Assembly: GCA_030167145.1 (NCBI GenBank)
Contig: CP126532.1
Location: 2,790,001-2,822,000, forward strand
DNA length: 32,000 bases
Reading direction: 5' to 3'
From: Ktedonobacterales bacterium
GTDB taxonomy: Bacteria; Chloroflexota; Ktedonobacteria; Ktedonobacterales; JADMIN01
Both the position numbers and the translations under genes were made by a program. The notes under the pieces are model-generated. The model did no database searches. It was not told the DNA's origin and saw only the letters and a list, made by a program, of their open reading frames with translations. This document shows positions 159-24,345 of this stretch, one piece after another. Every line of letters begins with the position of its first letter. The stretch's first letter is position 1.

Positions 159-1004
159 CTAGACGGATATGGGCAACTGACTCGTGTAGTATACATGCCC
201 ATCAACACCTACCACGTGATCTTTGCCATCTGCACCTGGAACCAGCCAAACCGGATCACCAGCATATTCTCCGCCCGATACCCACACGATTTTTCCCGTT
301 TGTTGGGCATAGGCGTTGACGGGGAAATAGACGAGTTGGGGTTGGGCGGAGGCGCGAAGAGAGGTGTGATGCTGCGCCATTACCGCAGCCGTAGCATCCT
401 GCGCGGACATGCGAGCGATGACGTTGTGAGGATGCGGCTTGGTGTAGGTCACGATTGCCTGGACGAGAATCGCGGTGCTGTTTGGGTTCAGCTCAAGTTC
501 CGCAGCGCCAATCGTTGCCCCGGATGTGTCATTCACTGGGATAACGTAGAAATTCGGCATCGCGTATTTGCCAGAACTCACCAGACAGCGGACAAAGAGC
601 GGCGGGCCGAGGTGGGAAAGATCCTTGATATAGTCGCCGCCCCCTGAGCGATCTACATTGAAGAGCGGACTCTGGCGCGCGGCTGCAATGATGTCGGCTG
701 GCGAATGAGACTTCAAGGTAATCCACCTGGCGGTTGTTGGACATGCTGGCAGACCAGCTGTGCCACAGGTATCCTGGGTGGGACCCTGACTCATCACTCC
801 GCTAGCTAGCCCTGATGGTGAACCGTGGCCCGAAGCTGAGGCTGTCGAGAGATTGTGTGCGACGATGCCAATCGTACCGAGCGTGAATACCATTGCCGCT
901 GCTAAAACTACAAAGGCGAAGTTGCCTGCGGTATGCTTCAGGTTCCGCTGTAGCTTGGAACCGCGCTTGGATTGCCGTCTTGCGGTACGTGCTGACACTT
1001 TCAT
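159..1004 (-). CDS. Membrane-anchored exported protein of unknown function (281 aa)
   Basis: ORF-track frame 159..1286(-) trimmed to the ATG at 1004, preceded by AGGAGA 8 nt upstream. Basic N-terminus, then one hydrophobic helix (FAFVVLAAAMVFTLGTIGIV), a Ser/Gly linker and a globular C-terminal part. No family recognised. Stop TAG at 159-161. Confidence 0.6.
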   Translation of the reverse strand: MKVSARTARRQSKRGSKLQRNLKHTAGNFAFVVLAAAMVFTLGTIGIVAHNLSTASASGHGSPSGLASGVMSQGPTQDTCGTAGLPACPTTARWITLKSHSPADIIAAARQSPLFNVDRSGGGDYIKDLSHLGPPLFVRCLVSSGKYAMPNFYVIPVNDTSGATIGAAELELNPNSTAILVQAIVTYTKPHPHNVIARMSAQDATAAVMAQHHTSLRASAQPQLVYFPVNAYAQQTGKIVWVSGGEYAGDPVWLVPGADGKDHVVGVDGHVYYTSQLPISV

Positions 1005-1056
1005 GCGATGTTTCTCCTCTCTGATGCGCTTACCGTTTCCTTTTTGCTGGGGTGGC

Positions 1057-2091
1057 TTACTCGTAGAGTATTTGTTGTCCATTGATCGAGTTGTAAGCCC
1101 AATCTGGACTCCACTGCCCATTGGTGTAGTTGTTATCCAGCCGGATCCAAGTGAAGCCGCCGTACCAATGCTTTTTGCCCGCGCCTGCATAAGGGCCAAC
1201 GGAAGGCTCAGGGTCGAACGTGTTAAGGCCATCGCCCACTGCGTATTTATCACCGTAGTAGAGCGACCAGAGCGAGTATGTGCCAAACTGGTTGCCTAGC
1301 CCGCTACCGTAGTTGCCTCCGGCCCACACACTGTAGTCTATCTCTTCGCGGTCACTACTATAGTCCCCTTCTGGATCGCGGTAGACCAACCCCTGAATCT
1401 GTGCGGGAAAGCTCGTCATCGGATCAGTCGCAGACCACAGGCCAGTGACCAGGACTAAGTGCATACCACCGTTGATAGCTACGCTCACCGGTTCGCTGTA
1501 CTGTTCGAGCGCGACCCCCAACTTCGTTGTCGCTTCGAGTACCTGCTGGCTGAAAGGCGGGGGTATTTGGCCAGCATGCGCGAAGGTCCAGCGATAGATG
1601 TAATCGTGATAGAAGGTGTTAGCGATCGTGTAGTTCCATGCCATGTAGGCCACAGAACGTGGATCGGTGCCGCCATCAGGAGCAATGTTGGTATAGCCAG
1701 CCCACGTATTTTTGGGGGTTGCGTAACCCCACTGGCTTTCACCACTCGTTTGTGTCTGATTGTTGTGCTCAACAGTGGTTTGAGCTGACGAGTTGGTGAA
1801 TGGTTGGGTTTGACCTTTGTTGATGGAATCGTAGTTCGCCATTGCAATAGCGTTCTCGACGCCACAGGCGTTGCTGCCAGGTGCTTGTGGCCAAATCCCA
1901 TTGTCGATGGATTCGATCATGATATTCGACAATGCCCCATACCATGCGCCTGTGCAGCCATGACATGCAGCATGCGCTACTGGATTGGGTGATAACCAAG
2001 GGAGTTTCGACCATCCCGTGGCAAGCAATGCTCCTGAAACAACAAACAAGGCCATTGCCAACTTCAGAGCACCGCGTTGGTACTTCGTCAC
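1057..2091 (-). CDS. Secreted protein, probable papain-fold / C39-like cysteine peptidase (344 aa)
   Basis: Frame of ORF 1057..3342(-) trimmed to the GTG at 2091, preceded by GAGGAGGAAG. Signal-peptide-like N-terminus (KYQRGALKLAMALFVVSGALLATG). Candidate catalytic motifs are Q-x6-C (QAPGSNACGVENAIAMANY) and GGMHLVLVTG, resembling C39-like domains from memory. The family call is an inference. Confidence 0.55.
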   Translation of the reverse strand: MTKYQRGALKLAMALFVVSGALLATGWSKLPWLSPNPVAHAACHGCTGAWYGALSNIMIESIDNGIWPQAPGSNACGVENAIAMANYDSINKGQTQPFTNSSAQTTVEHNNQTQTSGESQWGYATPKNTWAGYTNIAPDGGTDPRSVAYMAWNYTIANTFYHDYIYRWTFAHAGQIPPPFSQQVLEATTKLGVALEQYSEPVSVAINGGMHLVLVTGLWSATDPMTSFPAQIQGLVYRDPEGDYSSDREEIDYSVWAGGNYGSGLGNQFGTYSLWSLYYGDKYAVGDGLNTFDPEPSVGPYAGAGKKHWYGGFTWIRLDNNYTNGQWSPDWAYNSINGQQILYE

Positions 2092-2126
2092 GCACTTCCT
2101 CCTCACGAACCAAAAACAATCCTGCC

Positions 2127-3213
2127 GATACGCGGGGATACGCGGGGATACGCGGGGATACGCGGGGATACGCGGGGATACGCGGGGATACGCGGGGATA
2201 CGCGGGGATACGCGGGGATACGCGGGGATACGCGGGGATACGCGGGGATACGCGGGGATACGCGGGGATACGCGGGGATACGCGGGGATACGCGGGGATA
2301 CGCGGGGATACGCGGGGATACGCGGGGATACGCGGGGATACGCGGGGATACGCGGGGATACGCGGGGATACGCGGGGATACGCGGGGATACGCGGGGATA
2401 CGCGGGGATACGCGGGGATACGCGGGGATACGCGGGGATACGCGGGGATACGCGGGGATACGCGGGGATACGCGGGGATACGCGGGGATACGCGGGGATA
2501 CGCGGGGATACGCGGGGATACGCGGGGATACGCGGGGATACGCGGGGATACGCGGGGATACGCGGGGATACGCGGGGATACGCGGGGATACGCGGGGATA
2601 CGCGGGGATACGCGGGGATACGCGGGGATACGCGGGGATACGCGGGGATACGCGGGGATACGCGGGGATACGCGGGGATACGCGGGGATACGCGGGGATA
2701 CGCGGGGATACGCGGGGATACGCGGGGATACGCGGGGATACGCGGGGATACGCGGGGATACGCGGGGATACGCGGGGATACGCGGGGATACGCGGGGATA
2801 CGCGGGGATACGCGGGGATACGCGGGGATACGCGGGGATACGCGGGGATACGCGGGGATACGCGGGGATACGCGGGGATACGCGGGGATACGCGGGGATA
2901 CGCGGGGATACGCGGGGATACGCGGGGATACGCGGGGATACGCGGGGATACGCGGGGATACGCGGGGATACGCGGGGATACGCGGGGATACGCGGGGATA
3001 CGCGGGGATACGCGGGGATACGCGGGGATACGCGGGGATACGCGGGGATACGCGGGGATACGCGGGGATACGCGGGGATACGCGGGGATACGCGGGGATA
3101 CGCGGGGATACGCGGGGATACGCGGGGATACGCGGGGATACGCGGGGATACGCGGGGATACGCGGGGATACGCGGGGATACGCGGGGATACGCGGGGATA
3201 CGCGGGGATACGC
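2127..3213. repeat. Perfect tandem decamer array (GATACGCGGG)n, ~108.7 copies, 1087 bp
   Basis: Read directly: 108 consecutive identical CGCGGGGATA blocks from 2131 to 3210, plus partial units at both ends, with no substitution or indel. Open in all reading frames on both strands because the unit has no stop in any phase. Confidence 0.98.
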
Positions 3214-3465
3214 CCCGTCTTGCTGAACCTCCTCTCGAAAACTAATGACTTTGATGGTTTGGAGTGCTACTGTGAGGGATAACCCTCCTGTTGCTGCATC
3301 TCCTCTGGGTGAGAGTTTACCTACTAGATTACAACTTGTCAACCCTTTGTGTCTTCTTCTTAAAAATTGCCAAACTTGTGCAATCCGTTAGTGGGTTTCT
3401 GCGCTATACTGATGGGTAGCGAGAGCGAGCGGCAGAAGCAAGCAGAGACGAGGGGGCAGGAGCGG

Positions 3466-3966
3466 ATGGCGACACCAACTGAGGCGAAGGTGTCGGTGCG
3501 TCCAGCGTCGGATGCGGACCGTGAGGCGGCGTCGGCGTTCATTACGGCGGGGACGGCGCGGGGGCGGGCGAGTCTGGCGCTGTTGCGGCTGCGGCAGGGG
3601 TTGCTGTGGGTGGCGGTGGAGGAGAGCGCGGATGGCGAGAAGAGCGAGAAGCTGGTGGGGCTGCTGCTGGCGACGGTGCAGATCGAAGGGGATGACGCAG
3701 AGCCAGCGGGATATATCCATGAACTGCTGGTACACCCAGCGTACCGGCGGCTGGGGGTGGCGATGCACCTGTTGGATGCCGCTGAGCGCTTTTTTCTTGA
3801 GGAGCAGGGGTTTGCGCAGGTGTATCTGGTGACGTCGGCGGATAATGAGGCGGCGCTGCGGCTGTATCGCAGCCGTGGCTATCATATTCAGTCGGTGCAA
3901 TTGACCAAGCTGGGGTCGTCCGCCACACGCGAGGTGCGCGACGATGATGGCACAGTGGAAGAGTAG
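3466..3966 (+). CDS. GNAT family N-acetyltransferase (166 aa)
   Basis: ORF 3367..3966 trimmed to the ATG at 3466 (GGAG 4 nt upstream; start uncertain). Acetyl-CoA binding motif A region HELLVHPAYRRLGVAMHLL and a C-terminal NEAALRLYRSRGY, both typical of GNAT. Confidence 0.8.
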   Translation: MATPTEAKVSVRPASDADREAASAFITAGTARGRASLALLRLRQGLLWVAVEESADGEKSEKLVGLLLATVQIEGDDAEPAGYIHELLVHPAYRRLGVAMHLLDAAERFFLEEQGFAQVYLVTSADNEAALRLYRSRGYHIQSVQLTKLGSSATREVRDDDGTVEE

Positions 3967-3978
3967 GAGCGCAACACG

Positions 3979-4800
3979 ATGTCACAATCCATTTCGTTCG
4001 ATCCGGTGGCGGACCGCTATGATGCGACACGCTATCACCATGCGGAGGTAAGTGAGCGTATCGCGGCGGGGCTGATGGCGGTGGGGCGCATACCAGCGGG
4101 CGGGAGCATGCTGGAGATTGGCATCGGCACGGGACGGATTGCGCTGCCGTTGCTGGCGGCGGGCATCAACGTGACGGGGGTGGACATCTCGACGCGGATG
4201 GTGGAGCGGCTGTGGGCGAAATATGATGAGCGACGGGCCGCCGCGCCGGAGCGGACGTGGGGCACGCTGACGGTGGAGATGGCGGATATGACGGCGCTGC
4301 CGTTCGCGGATGGGGCATTTGATGCGGTGGTGGGGGTGCATGTGCTGCATCTGGCGCCGGAGTGGCGGCGGGCGCTGGCGGAGGCGTTGCGCGTGACGAA
4401 GCGTGGCGGTGCGGTGTTGATCGGGCAGGATGTGCGCGAGGATGAGGCGCGGAGCCGCATTCACGAAGAATGGGACGCGATTGTGGAAGACCTGGGCTAT
4501 AATCCGGATCCGGTGGGGGCGGCGAGCTTTCAGAGCATCGTGGATGAACTGCGGAGCCGGGGCGTGCCGGTGGAGATTCGCACGCTGGCGACGTGGCAGG
4601 AGGAGAATGCGCCACGCGAGGCGTTGCTAAATATTACGGAGCGGCTGTGGTCGCGCACGTGGGCGGTGCCGGATGATCTCTTCGCGGAATCGTCGCGCAG
4701 GCTGACGGCGTGGGCCGAGCGGGAGTACGGCGATACGCTGGACACACCACATGTGGCGGCGTATTCGTTCAGGGTGGCGGTGGGACGCGTGGGGGCGTAG
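3979..4800 (+). CDS. Class I SAM-dependent methyltransferase (273 aa)
   Basis: Motif I LEIGIGTGRIALPL, an acidic residue after beta-2 (GVDIS) and a post-I/II region FDAVVGVHVLHL. GGAG RBS 9 nt upstream. Starts 13 nt after the GNAT stop, so likely co-transcribed. Confidence 0.85.
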   Translation: MSQSISFDPVADRYDATRYHHAEVSERIAAGLMAVGRIPAGGSMLEIGIGTGRIALPLLAAGINVTGVDISTRMVERLWAKYDERRAAAPERTWGTLTVEMADMTALPFADGAFDAVVGVHVLHLAPEWRRALAEALRVTKRGGAVLIGQDVREDEARSRIHEEWDAIVEDLGYNPDPVGAASFQSIVDELRSRGVPVEIRTLATWQEENAPREALLNITERLWSRTWAVPDDLFAESSRRLTAWAEREYGDTLDTPHVAAYSFRVAVGRVGA

Positions 4801-6406: not shown

Positions 6407-6472
6407 GGTTGGGCGCAATCACTTGGGCGCAATCACTTGGGCGCAATCACTTGGGCGCAATCACTTGGGCGG
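6407..6472. repeat. 14-bp tandem repeat (ACTTGGGCGCAATC) x ~4.7
   Basis: Read directly: GGTTGGGCGCAATC, then three perfect ACTTGGGCGCAATC units, then the partial unit ACTTGGGCGG. Lies between the divergent GH3 gene (start 6073) and the ECF sigma gene (start 6544). Confidence 0.95.
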
Positions 6473-23376: not shown

Positions 23377-24246
23377 ATGCGAGCAGTCTCATCCCAGAAA
23401 GGATATCGCCTCGTGGCTTCGGAACCTCTACTACCCTATCCGGTCAAAGAAGTGGCGCGTGTGATGTTGGGTACGGGCGATGTGCCCGCGCTGCTGGTGC
23501 GCCCGGACGTGCCTGGTCCGCATGCGGCCGCTGTCCTTCAGCATGGCTACGCTTCGGAGAAGTCGGCGCTGCTGCCCTTCGCGCAGCAGCTTGCCGCGCT
23601 GGGCTTTGTGGTGTTGCTGGCGGACGCCTGGGGGCACGGTGAACGCTTTCCGACGAGCGGGCCAAATTGGATGACCGATATGCACGCCGATTACGCGATG
23701 GAGGTGGTGCGCCATACGGTGGAGGATGTGCGTGAGGGCATCAATACGCTGATCGAGCAGCCAGATGTGCGCGAGGATGCGGTGCTGGTGGGCGGATTCT
23801 CGCTGGGCGCTATCGTGGCGCTGATTGCGGGCACGGAGGATGCGCGGGCCGCTGCTGTCGTTTCGTTGGCTGGGTCATCGCTGCCGGATCTGCTGGGCGT
23901 CAAGCATTTCAATAGCCGTCCGCCCAGCGCGGATACGGAACGTTATGGCCTGGAGCACGACGCCGCCGCGCATCTGGCGCAGTTCGCGCCGAAGCCGCTG
24001 CTGCTCTCGCATGGGCGCAACGATGATCTGGTGCCGGTTGGCGGCACGCTGCGGCTGTATGAGACGGCGCAACCGCTCTACGCCGAGCATCCTGACCGGC
24101 TGGCGCTGAATCTGTACGAACATCGCCATGACATCAGCGAGCAGCAGATCATGGACTGCATCACGTGGGTGACGCACGTCGTTCCGCTGGCCACACGCGA
24201 GGAATGGCTAGCGCGGATGGACGGACCCGAACGGATGATCGGGTAG
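23377..24246 (+). CDS. Alpha/beta hydrolase (dienelactone hydrolase / S9-like, 289 aa)
   Basis: Nucleophile elbow GGFSLGAIVAL (G-x-S-x-G), acid HGRNDDLVP and a His near YEHRHDI. AAGGTGG RBS 9 nt upstream of the ATG at 23377; the start is uncertain. Confidence 0.75.
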   Translation: MRAVSSQKGYRLVASEPLLPYPVKEVARVMLGTGDVPALLVRPDVPGPHAAAVLQHGYASEKSALLPFAQQLAALGFVVLLADAWGHGERFPTSGPNWMTDMHADYAMEVVRHTVEDVREGINTLIEQPDVREDAVLVGGFSLGAIVALIAGTEDARAAAVVSLAGSSLPDLLGVKHFNSRPPSADTERYGLEHDAAAHLAQFAPKPLLLSHGRNDDLVPVGGTLRLYETAQPLYAEHPDRLALNLYEHRHDISEQQIMDCITWVTHVVPLATREEWLARMDGPERMIG

Positions 24247-24345
24247 TGCGGGATCCCATAGATGGGCGTGGACAGACACGAACGGATGATCGGCTAGCCA
24301 GGGGTCCCATAGATGGGCGCGGACAGACACGAATGTCTGTCCTAC
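24219..24345 (+). repeat. 51-bp tandem repeat (~2.5 copies) spanning the hydrolase stop codon and ending in a REP-like hairpin
   Basis: Copies start at 24219, 24270 and 24321 (period 51). Copies 1 and 2 are ~84% identical. Copy 3 diverges after 13 nt into GGACAGACA-CGAA-TGTCTGTCC-TAC (24321-24345). Confidence 0.85.

What the first reader, a model, noticed from the sequence alone, without database searches (positions are those of the whole stretch)
2127..3213. Error-free 10-bp x ~109-copy tandem array filling a divergent intergenic region
Read directly: GATACGCGGG repeats 108.7 times over 1087 bp with no substitution or indel. The unit is not a multiple of 3, so this is not an ordinary coding repeat. 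The array occupies most of the gap between a secreted peptidase gene (GTG start at 2091, minus strand) and a GNAT gene (start 3466, plus strand). Kilobase-scale perfect decamer arrays are very unusual in bacterial chromosomes, because slippage and point mutation normally shorten or degrade them. Perfection implies one of three things: very recent expansion, ongoing homogenisation or selection (for example a protein-binding iteron or centromere-like array), or an assembly artefact. I know of no described element with this unit.
Basis: seen in the sequence. Interest (0 to 1): 0.85.

Follow-up and report, generated by a model that had tools for sequence, protein, structure and literature searches.

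The report
Kilobase perfect decamer minisatellite, Ktedonobacterales chromosome
A soil-type bacterium's chromosome has a 10-letter DNA word repeated about 109 times without error between two genes; it is most likely a freshly expanded slippage-prone repeat, unusually large for a bacterium, and nothing shows it has a function.

Summary
GATACGCGGG repeats 108.7 times at 2127-3213 with no substitution or indel, and it fills 79% of the divergent gap between a membrane-anchored papain-like protein gene (GTG 2091, minus strand) and a GNAT gene.

The window comes from a 5.07-Mb contig of a Ktedonobacterales MAG. Two k=31 contigs from one SRA run match both flanks at 100% identity and stop 29 nt and 19 nt inside the array. 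Both junctions are therefore corroborated. The copy number is not, and the left tip carries one 9-bp unit.

The array is absent from the nearest orthologous loci (64-66% protein identity). It is not at a GC-skew switch, and no mobile, partition or replication genes lie near it.

Related decamer arrays occur elsewhere:
- Two Longimicrobium MAGs carry one at the same locus, each with a different dominant unit variant.
- Orthologous gut-metagenome contigs differ in copy number.

Best reading: a real, recently hyper-expanded long simple-sequence repeat (VNTR) inside the 5' leader of the left operon. The unit fits the G-quadruplex motif and can form slipped hairpins. Remaining risk: the length and perfection rest on one assembly. 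A protein-binding or centromere-like role has no support. Interest is moderate.

The parts
2127..3213 (+). Perfect tandem array (GATACGCGGG) x108.7. The G-rich strand is the + strand, with a GGGG run every 10 nt.
   Evidence: TRF, sequence, pattern search. G4-motif count: 210 overlapping starts inside the array, against 3 elsewhere on + and 0 on -.
2092..2126 (-). 35-bp spacer between the array and the left gene's GTG. It contains the Shine-Dalgarno sequence GAGGAGGAA (2096-2104, minus strand) and has no room for a promoter.
   Evidence: Sequence. The orthologue has an equivalent AGGAGG-GTG arrangement.
1057..2091 (-). Left gene, 344 aa. It has an N-terminal membrane anchor or signal sequence and belongs to a family named only as Ktedonobacterales. 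The predicted fold is a weak match to papain-like cysteine peptidases. C76 and H211 are invariant.
   Evidence: no Pfam, NCBIfam or PDB sequence hit.
159..1082 (-). Partner gene, 307 aa. It overlaps the left gene's end by 26 nt, and the pairing is conserved in the orthologue and in the paralogue pair.
3314..3342 (-). Promoter-like site TTGACA-17-TAAACT pointing leftwards into the array. If it is used, the array lies in a leader of about 1.2 kb for the left operon; without the array the leader would be about 130 nt.
   Evidence: one site found against 0.9 expected in shuffles, so the evidence is weak. The position and orientation are suggestive only.
3466..3966 (+). GNAT acetyltransferase gene. 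JGI calls the start at 3412. It forms a GNAT-methyltransferase pair (methyltransferase at 3979-4800) that is conserved in relatives.
   Evidence: Pfam; contexts.
1989..3245 (+). 418-aa ORF called by the JGI annotation across the array (DTRGYAGIRG repeats). It is almost certainly spurious.
   Evidence: (gene table).

Best explanation
This is a real, lineage-specific, recently hyper-expanded simple-sequence repeat (a decamer minisatellite, LSSR or VNTR). It sits in the 5' leader and promoter-proximal region of a Ktedonobacterales-specific operon that encodes a membrane-anchored papain-like protein.

Inferred origin: replication slippage and/or unequal sister-strand exchange amplified a seed unit. 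The unit favours this because single strands can misalign through the palindromic CGCG core, forming slipped hairpins. In addition, the G-rich strand fits the G-quadruplex motif (GGGG-N6)n.

Inferred age: perfection means the last expansion or homogenising event is young. At about 6e-10 substitutions per bp per generation (Drake's rule, my own knowledge), 1087 bp takes about 1.5 million generations to receive its first substitution.

Inferred consequence: the array leaves only 35 bp, with no room for a promoter, between itself and the left gene's start. Transcription of that operon must therefore cross about 1.1 kb of untranslated, C-rich, G-poor RNA (CCCGCGUAUC)n, copied from a G4-prone template. 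Such RNA is the classic substrate for Rho-dependent termination. The expansion therefore most likely lowers or silences the left operon, and copy-number changes could tune it.

Shown: the array, both junctions, its absence from the orthologous loci available, and the existence and variability of similar arrays elsewhere. Inferred: the expansion mechanism, the age and the effect on expression.
For: - The array is perfect and far beyond chance.
- k=31 contigs from SRR22113990 match the left flank over 6,941 nt, with a 1-nt gap inside the repeat as the only difference, and match the right flank exactly over 3,119 nt. They end 29 nt and 19 nt into the array. That is the expected behaviour of a de Bruijn assembler at a repeat longer than k (PMC6868369).
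- The array lies in an ordinary intergenic region of a core chromosomal neighbourhood: ftsZ and ftsA on the left, ileS on the right, and no mobile or partition genes.
- It is lineage-specific. The closest orthologue of the left operon (64% identity) has a 195-bp upstream spacer with no array, and the GNAT-methyltransferase pairs of relatives have none either.
- The kind occurs in nature. Two Longimicrobium MAGs, 83% identical over 7.9 kb, both begin inside 10-bp arrays of at least 14 and at least 26 units at the same locus. Different unit variants occur in homogeneous blocks (AATACGCGGG; GATACGAGGG; GATCCGAGAG), the signature of slippage with concerted evolution.
- Orthologous gut-metagenome contigs carry 2 or 3 copies of GATACGCGGG plus a variable number of variant units, which is copy-number polymorphism.
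- Another metagenome contig has about 8 units in a divergent intergenic region.
- A second perfect intergenic array (14 bp x4.5) lies 3.2 kb away in the same window.
- The unit is predicted to form CGCG-paired slipped hairpins and G-quadruplexes.
- LSSRs with 5-11-nt units are an established class in prokaryotes (Mrazek 2007, as summarised in PMC4679880).
Against: - The copy number and perfect homogeneity come from a single assembly whose read type I could not establish.
- The short-read-style contig shows a 9-bp unit, second from the left edge, that the long contig lacks.
- Both k=31 contigs stop earlier than a perfectly clean array would predict (30 nt). This hints at heterogeneity or at sequencing difficulty.
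- No second genome of the same species was available, so polymorphism at this locus is not shown.
- 109 perfect copies is well above what the literature I read reports (up to 43 heptamer copies).
- The promoter call behind the 'leader' reading is no better than chance expectation.
- The Rho, G4 and expression effects are untested.
Confidence: 0.6

Rival explanations
1. Partial assembly or polishing artefact. A tandem array exists here, but its length and/or perfect homogeneity are products of consensus building. The true tract could be shorter, longer (collapsed), heterogeneous in the population, or contain variant units that polishing homogenised.
For: - Only one assembly carries the full array.
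- The k=31 contig L032 has a 9-bp unit near the left junction where the long contig is perfect.
- Both k=31 contigs end 19-29 nt into the array rather than the 30 nt expected for a clean perfect repeat.
- The protein database records this contig as 5,069,607 bp, whereas the JGI record is 5,069,600 bp. That suggests two versions of the sequence.
- Tandem repeats are a known source of assembly error (PMC6868369).
Against: - The usual error at repeats is collapse, not expansion.
- Random consensus errors would create imperfect units rather than remove them, so 1087 flawless bases argue for good spanning data.
- Both junctions and both flanks agree exactly with independent contigs.
- The 1-nt difference lies in a C4 homopolymer at a contig tip, where errors are typical.
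Confidence: 0.25
2. Functional protein-binding or structural array: an iteron, a centromere-like or nucleoid-organising site, or a G4/i-motif regulatory element, kept homogeneous by selection or gene conversion.
For: - The 10-bp period is close to one helical turn. A wedge model gives uniform curvature of 10.3 degrees per turn against a window mean of 5.9.
- The G4 motif is dense in the array and almost absent elsewhere in the window.
- In Longimicrobium a related array persists at one locus across two species.
- Arrays in three unrelated lineages lie about 110-250 bp upstream of a gene whose coding strand is the G-rich strand.
Against: - No partition, replication-initiator or mobile-element genes lie nearby.
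- There is no GC-skew switch.
- The array is absent from the orthologous loci of relatives.
- There are no other copies in the window.
- The predicted curvature is below the window's 95th percentile (12.0) and well under a phased A-tract reference (23.8).
- Known centromere or iteron arrays have about 4-12 sites, not 109 contiguous ones (my own knowledge).
- There is no Rfam match.
Confidence: 0.08
3. Coding repeat. The array is translated as an N-terminal (PRIPAYPRVS)n extension of the left protein, because the 761-aa minus-strand ORF 1057..3342 is in frame with it.
For: - The ORF 1057..3342 is open and in frame.
- No frame on either strand of the array contains a stop codon.
Against: - A 10-bp unit is not a multiple of 3, and the repeats are identical at the DNA level.
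- The conserved Shine-Dalgarno-plus-GTG start and the N-terminal anchor are shared with an orthologue that lacks any extension. Family members are 190-394 aa long.
- The absence of stops follows simply from the unit's sequence, and being in frame has a 1-in-3 chance.
- A signal or anchor helix placed after 400 residues would not work as a signal peptide.
Confidence: 0.03

Closest known systems
Prokaryotic long simple sequence repeats (LSSRs, units 5-11 nt; Mrazek et al. 2007) / VNTR minisatellites
   Same: Both are head-to-tail direct repeats of a short unit that is not a multiple of 3. Both are intergenic, lineage-specific and prone to slippage. Related loci show copy-number and unit-variant polymorphism.
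   Different: The scale differs: about 109 perfect copies over 1.09 kb, whereas the literature I could read mentions arrays of up to 43 copies (PMC4679880). Polymorphism at this particular locus has not been shown.
Cyanobacterial / Beggiatoaceae heptanucleotide repeats (STRR, TAACTGA arrays)
   Same: Both are intergenic tandem short-unit arrays, often just upstream of start codons, with a sporadic phylogenetic distribution.
   Different: Those are heptamers present as many short arrays per genome (2-6 copies, rarely up to 43). Here there is one very long decamer array, and the unit appears nowhere else in 42 kb.
Phase-variation contingency loci (SSR in a promoter or 5' region of surface or secreted protein genes)
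   Same: The repeat lies between a putative promoter and the start of an operon for a secreted or membrane protein, so changes in copy number could alter expression.
   Different: Classic loci use 1-7-nt units with about 5-30 copies and act through -35/-10 spacing or through the reading frame. A 1.1-kb decamer array cannot work by either route. No ON/OFF variants were observed.
G-quadruplex-forming minisatellites of eukaryotes (e.g. human CEB1, insulin-linked polymorphic region)
   Same: Both are G-rich tandem units whose G-runs fit the G4 consensus, and both are highly unstable and expandable (motif tested).
   Different: This one is in a bacterial chromosome. G4 formation is only predicted, and there is no evidence for Pif1-type dependence or instability.
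Plasmid partition centromeres and iterons (e.g. parC of R1 or pSK41, with 10-11-bp or 20-bp direct repeats)
   Same: Both are direct repeats with a period close to one helical turn.
   Different: There is no adjacent parMR, parAB or rep gene. The array has 109 contiguous units rather than 4-12 sites, and it sits in core chromosomal context.

Membership tests
Long simple sequence repeat (LSSR) / VNTR | Uninterrupted head-to-tail repeats of a unit of 1-11 nt, longer than chance would give in that genome | tested here: met
   10-nt unit, 108.7 copies, 100% identity; 113 matches against 4.6 expected, with 0 of 100 shuffles reaching that number.
Long simple sequence repeat (LSSR) / VNTR | Copy number varies between strains or within populations | tested here: inconclusive
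   No second genome of this species was found. k=31 contigs stop in the array, and one carries a 9-bp unit. Variation is seen only at analogous loci in other taxa.
Long simple sequence repeat (LSSR) / VNTR | Lineage-specific: absent from the orthologous position in relatives | tested here: met
   The orthologue loci L034 and L035 (64% identity) and the GNAT-methyltransferase loci L029 and L030 have no array. These relatives are distant.
Phase-variable contingency locus | The repeat sits inside the -35/-10 spacer or inside the reading frame, so that single-unit changes switch expression | tested here: not met
   The array lies outside the conserved start (GTG 2091 with its Shine-Dalgarno sequence). 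It is 1087 bp long and no promoter hexamers flank it.
Phase-variable contingency locus | ON and OFF length variants coexist in a population | not testable with these tools
   This needs the raw reads or isolates.
Partition centromere / iteron array | Adjacent cognate partition or replication-initiator genes (parA/parB, parM/parR, rep) | tested here: not met
   Pfam annotation and gene tables covering about 10 kb to the left and 29 kb to the right show none.
Partition centromere / iteron array | Specific protein binding to the repeat | not testable with these tools
   This needs DAP-seq, ChIP or EMSA.
Replication origin or terminus repeat cluster | Coincides with a GC-skew sign change and with ori or ter marker genes | tested here: not met
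   GC skew is positive in almost every 1-kb bin, from 9.8 kb left of the window to about 28 kb right of the array. The only exception is about 0 over the two left genes.
G-quadruplex-forming minisatellite | At least four G-runs of 3 or more Gs separated by loops of 1-7 nt, repeated in tandem | tested here: met
   (GGGG-N6)n; 210 overlapping motif starts in the array. With G-quadruplexes allowed, ViennaRNA (default RNA parameters) places them in the minimum-energy fold at 8 units or more. This is a motif-level prediction only.
G-quadruplex-forming minisatellite | G4 formation and G4-dependent instability demonstrated | not testable with these tools
   This needs CD or NMR, polymerase-stop assays, or genetics.
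CRISPR array | Repeats of 23-50 nt separated by unique spacers | tested here: not met
   The units are contiguous 10-mers with no spacers.
Known RNA family (Rfam 15) | Match at or above the gathering score | tested here: not met
   The only match is Hrs1, at 24 bits against a gathering score of 56.4, E 0.067.

The most novel reading that the evidence does not exclude
Decamer arrays of the GGGG-ATAC-NN type are a maintained bacterial 'satellite'. On this reading they are promoter-proximal tracts that form G4 or i-motif structures. They persist at fixed loci across species, as in the two Longimicrobium MAGs. Concerted evolution keeps them homogeneous. They act as tunable structural or transcriptional insulators, for example through Rho- or G4-mediated attenuation of the adjacent operon. 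They have been invisible until now because short-read assemblies break at them.
Probability: 0.12. Interest if true: 0.7.

Novelty: new member of a known kind. Interest (0 to 1): 0.4.

Why it matters
If the length is confirmed, this would be among the largest perfectly homogeneous short-unit tandem arrays I know of in a bacterial chromosome. It would also illustrate what short-read assemblies hide. Every analogous array found here in short-read data is either tiny or cut off at a contig end.

The locus offers a natural test of how far replication slippage can run in a bacterium, and of what a kilobase of G4-prone, C-rich-transcript DNA does to a downstream operon. If the array is instead heterogeneous or mis-sized, it becomes a useful warning about tandem repeats in 'closed' MAGs. 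Either way, the gene caller's 418-aa 'protein' across it is a database artefact.

Tried and rejected
- **Origin, terminus or telomere-fusion idea.** Rejected. GC skew stays positive on both sides over 42 kb, and the array has a single orientation.
- **Horizontally acquired island.** The left genes have GC 0.55 and skew near 0, which suggested acquisition. Rejected as evidence, because low GC is a family trait: the orthologue has 0.58-0.59 against 0.63-0.67 for its neighbours, and the paralogue pair has 0.50-0.54. The family is also Ktedonobacterales-wide.
- **Array upstream of the paralogue.** The Logan contig ends 41 bp upstream of the paralogue but shows no repeat there.
- **Strong intrinsic curvature from the 10-bp phasing.** A wedge model, with Bolshoy-type parameters recalled from memory, gives only 10.3 degrees per turn. 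That is below the window's 95th percentile and well below a phased A-tract.
- **Homology between the array-deleted intergenic region and the orthologue's upstream region.** None above shuffled controls.
- **Inverted repeats or terminators around the array.** Nothing meaningful.
- **Rfam.** No match.
- **Viral contigs.** No match.
- **Literature.** Searches for the sample, the locus tag and the repeat sequence found nothing relevant.
- **Protein-level search for ORFs called across similar arrays.**
  - The word-indexed search found nothing, not even the window's own ORF, so that negative is uninformative.
  - The exhaustive HMMER search returned mostly unrelated repetitive proteins, such as mucins. 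It also returned a few ORFs that back-translate to related decamers (GATACCTGGG, GATACCCGGG, GATACGAAGG) in AT-rich, apparently eukaryotic contexts. The longest of those is about 76 imperfect units.
  - That search is biased towards GATAC-containing units by construction.

Full report
**Observation.** The window holds a flawless tandem array of GATACGCGGG at 2127-3213. It has period 10 and 108.7 copies, with 100% matches and no indels (TRF; raw sequence). A pattern search allowing one mismatch finds 108 exact in-register copies inside the array. Elsewhere in the 32 kb there are five one-mismatch hits and no exact copy, against 4.6 +/- 2.3 matches expected for the whole window; none of 100 shuffles reaches 113. 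The array ends in a partial unit (GATACGC, 3207-3213). It fills 79% of the 1374-bp gap between a minus-strand gene starting at GTG 2091 and a plus-strand GNAT gene starting at ATG 3466.

**Source and independent corroboration.** An exact-protein look-up places the window on JGI metagenome 3300045419, contig Ga0494333_323 (5,069,600 bp; window position 1 is record position 2,790,001). NCBI names the same protein 'MAG: Ktedonobacterales bacterium', locus tag OJF49_002682. One other data set, SRA run SRR22113990 as assembled by Logan (k=31), carries the same organism.
- Contig L032 (6,970 bp) matches the left flank with no mismatch. Its only difference is a 1-nt gap inside the repeat. It begins with 29 nt of repeat.
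- Contig L002 (3,119 bp) matches the right flank at 100% and begins 19 nt inside the array.

Both junctions are therefore seen independently, and both contigs break at the array. That is what a de Bruijn assembler does when a repeat exceeds k (PMC6868369). This implies an array of at least about 41 bp in that data, but it says nothing about 109 copies.

There is one discrepancy. In L032 the second unit from the left edge is 9 bp (CCC instead of CCCC), while the long contig is perfect there. This may be a homopolymer error at a contig tip or a real variant unit. Both contigs also stop earlier than the 30 nt a clean perfect repeat would allow, which hints at heterogeneity or sequencing difficulty. 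I could not learn the read technology, and no paper mentions the sample.

**Context.** The neighbourhood is core chromosome.
- To the left lie ftsZ, ftsA, a BNR/sortilin-like protein, and then a two-gene operon (partner 159-1082, left gene 1057-2091, both minus strand).
- To the right lie a GNAT, a class I methyltransferase, a GH3 glycosidase, an ECF sigma factor, a BNR protein, PSP1, an ANTAR regulator, an HtrA-like protease, GT20, isoleucyl-tRNA synthetase, a sulfatase and its maturase.
- No transposase, integrase, partition or replication-initiator gene is present.
- GC skew is positive (about +0.1 to +0.3) on both sides for 42 kb, so the array is not at an origin or terminus.

**The left gene.** It has no Pfam, NCBIfam or PDB sequence match. 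Its homologues number 103, and every one that carries a source name is from Ktedonobacterales. They share invariant C76 and H211. An AlphaFold model is confident (mean pLDDT 87.8). It gives only weak Foldseek matches (E 0.07-0.5), and the top ones are mostly papain-like cysteine peptidases: IdeS/Mac-1, ZUP1, UfSP and cruzain. 'Secreted peptidase' is therefore plausible but weakly supported. The low GC content of this gene pair is a family trait, not evidence of recent transfer.

**Lineage specificity.** The nearest orthologue of the left operon has 64% identity (L034, L035). It keeps the order peptidase-like gene, partner, BNR protein, and it keeps the same Shine-Dalgarno-plus-GTG start. Upstream it has a GerE regulator and a 195-bp spacer with no tandem repeat. 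The GNAT-methyltransferase pair is conserved in relatives (66% and 61% identity) with unrelated upstream genes and no array. A paralogous pair in the same genome shows no repeat in the 41 bp available upstream. The array is thus a derived feature of this lineage. No closer relative was available.

**The same kind of array elsewhere.** Scanning one genome per species (GTDB) and the JGI metagenome collection for two exact units gave 12 and 13 loci, none with a long perfect array. Several of them sit inside larger decamer arrays.
- Two Longimicrobium MAG contigs are 83% identical over 7.9 kb. Both begin inside a 10-bp array cut by the contig end, upstream of a threonine-aldolase-like gene and recA.
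  - One has at least 26 units, in blocks: GATACGAGGG x14, a mixed run of GATACGCGGG and GATACGAGGG units, then GATCCGAGAG x8.
  - The other has at least 14 units of AATACGCGGG and GATACGCGGG.
  - A shared locus with different dominant variants in homogeneous blocks is the signature of slippage or unequal exchange with concerted evolution.
- A group of orthologous gut-metagenome contigs carries 2 or 3 GATACGCGGG units, plus a variable number of variant units, between a stop codon and a terminator hairpin. That is copy-number polymorphism.
- Another metagenome contig has about 8 units in a divergent intergenic region.
- Viral contigs have none.
- An exhaustive protein search with the translated array found only a handful of ORFs that back-translate to related decamers, mostly in AT-rich, apparently eukaryotic contexts. 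The longest is about 76 imperfect units. That search is biased by construction.
- Within the window, a second perfect intergenic array (TTGGGCGCAATCAC x4.5, 6409-6471) lies between the GH3 and ECF sigma genes.

**Physical properties.**
- The G-rich (+) strand is (GGGG-N6)n, which fits the G-quadruplex consensus. There are 210 overlapping motif starts inside the array, against 3 elsewhere on the + strand and none on the - strand.
- Without G4s, either strand is predicted to fold through the palindromic CGCG cores into slipped hairpins.
- With G4s allowed, they enter the minimum-energy fold at 8 units or more.
- A wedge model, with parameters recalled from memory, predicts uniform but modest curvature of 10.3 degrees per turn. 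The window mean is 5.9, its 95th percentile 12.0, and a phased A-tract reference 23.8.
- There is no Rfam family, terminator or meaningful inverted repeat.

**Likely mechanism and consequence.** I read this as a recently hyper-expanded LSSR/VNTR. LSSRs with 5-11-nt units are an established, phylogenetically scattered class attributed to polymerase slippage (Mrazek 2007, as summarised in PMC4679880). That paper notes arrays of up to 43 copies, so 109 perfect copies is extreme.

Perfection is less restrictive than it looks. At about 6e-10 substitutions per bp per generation (Drake's rule, my own knowledge), 1087 bp waits about 1.5 million generations for its first substitution. Slippage in long arrays is orders of magnitude faster. 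So the array need only be young, or recently homogenised, and its length is probably in flux.

Position matters. Only 35 bp, holding the Shine-Dalgarno sequence, separate the array from GTG 2091, so no promoter fits between them. The only promoter-like site in the gap is TTGACA-17-TAAACT at 3342-3314 on the minus strand. It lies beyond the array and points into it (the evidence is weak, with one site against 0.9 expected). If it is used, the leader would be about 130 nt without the array and about 1.2 kb with it.

That leader RNA, (CCCGCGUAUC)n, is 50% C and 20% G, untranslated and weakly structured. From general knowledge these are the properties of a Rho-utilisation site, and its template strand is G4-prone. 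I therefore infer that the expansion attenuates or silences the left operon, and that contractions would restore it. None of this is tested.

**Rivals.**
- (a) The length or perfection is an assembly or polishing product (0.25). Support: a single assembly, the 9-bp unit in L032, early contig stops, and two recorded contig lengths (5,069,600 and 5,069,607). Against: the usual error is collapse, consensus errors would add imperfections rather than remove them, and both flanks and both junctions agree.
- (b) A protein-binding or structural element (0.08). Support: the helical-turn period, the G4 density, locus persistence in Longimicrobium, and the recurring position about 110-250 bp upstream of a gene on the G-rich strand. 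Against: no cognate genes, absence from orthologous loci, modest curvature, and a scale unlike known iterons or centromeres.
- (c) A coding N-terminal extension (0.03). The 761-aa ORF 1057..3342 is in frame. However, the conserved Shine-Dalgarno-GTG start, family lengths of 190-394 aa and the 10-bp unit argue against it. The JGI-called 418-aa plus-strand ORF across the array is spurious.

**Verdict.** In kind it is a member of a known class, the bacterial long simple-sequence repeat or minisatellite, with a new unit. Its exact size awaits read-level confirmation. Interest is moderate (0.4). The most novel reading not excluded is that maintained G4-type decamer 'satellites' act as promoter-proximal regulators across phyla. 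I give that about 12%.

Noticed in passing
window 6409-6471: A second perfect tandem array, TTGGGCGCAATCAC x4.5 (100% identity). It lies in the divergent intergenic region between the GH3 glycosidase gene (minus strand) and the ECF sigma factor gene (plus strand). It suggests this genome is prone to intergenic short-unit repeats.
   Followed up: partly
window 1-32000 and 9.8 kb to its left (L031); compare L033: The + strand shows unusually strong positive GC skew (about +0.1 to +0.3 per kb), regardless of gene orientation, over 42 kb. The two genes at 159-2091 are the exception, with skew near 0 and GC 0.55. Another 11-kb locus of the same organism (L033) shows skew of only about -0.04 to -0.07. 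Unexplained.
   Followed up: partly
window 1989-3245 (+) and 1057-3342 (-): The public annotation calls a 418-aa 'protein' made of DTRGYAGIRG repeats across the array. A 761-aa minus-strand ORF also runs through the array in frame with the left gene. The array has no stop codon in any of the six frames, so it generates spurious database proteins.
   Followed up: yes
L009 1-260 and L004 1-140 (Longimicrobium MAG contigs DASUVG010000078.1, DATABT010000193.1): Orthologous loci in two Longimicrobium MAGs (83% nucleotide identity) start inside 10-bp arrays of near-identical units (GATACGAGGG, GATACGCGGG, AATACGCGGG, GATCCGAGAG) arranged in homogeneous blocks. The arrays lie upstream of a threonine-aldolase-like gene and recA and are truncated by the contig ends.
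   Followed up: partly
L016, L017, L019, L020, L023, L024, L027 (gut-metagenome contigs): The same decamer occurs 2 or 3 times, plus a variable number of variant units, at one orthologous locus between a stop codon and a GGCCTTTT..AAAAGGCC terminator hairpin. This is a small VNTR of the same unit in an unrelated gut bacterium.
   Followed up: partly
window 159-2091 (-); L034, L035, L033: The left gene and its partner form a conserved two-gene cassette whose named homologues are all from Ktedonobacterales, with a paralogous pair in the same genome (OJF49_002150). The cassette has consistently lower GC than its neighbours. The predicted fold gives only weak matches to papain-like cysteine peptidases, with invariant Cys76 and His211. 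No family is curated in Pfam or NCBIfam.
   Followed up: partly
window 24218-24333: A 51-bp unit repeated 2.3 times (87% identity) at and just beyond the 3' end of an alpha/beta-hydrolase gene (23377-24246).
   Followed up: no
P0225, P0250, P0271 (protein-library hits): ORFs made of 10-residue repeats back-translate to related decamer arrays (GATACCTGGG, about 76 units; GATACCCGGG; GATACGAAGG) in AT-rich, apparently eukaryotic contexts. GGGGATAC-type decamer minisatellites therefore also exist outside bacteria. The search was biased towards such units.
   Followed up: no
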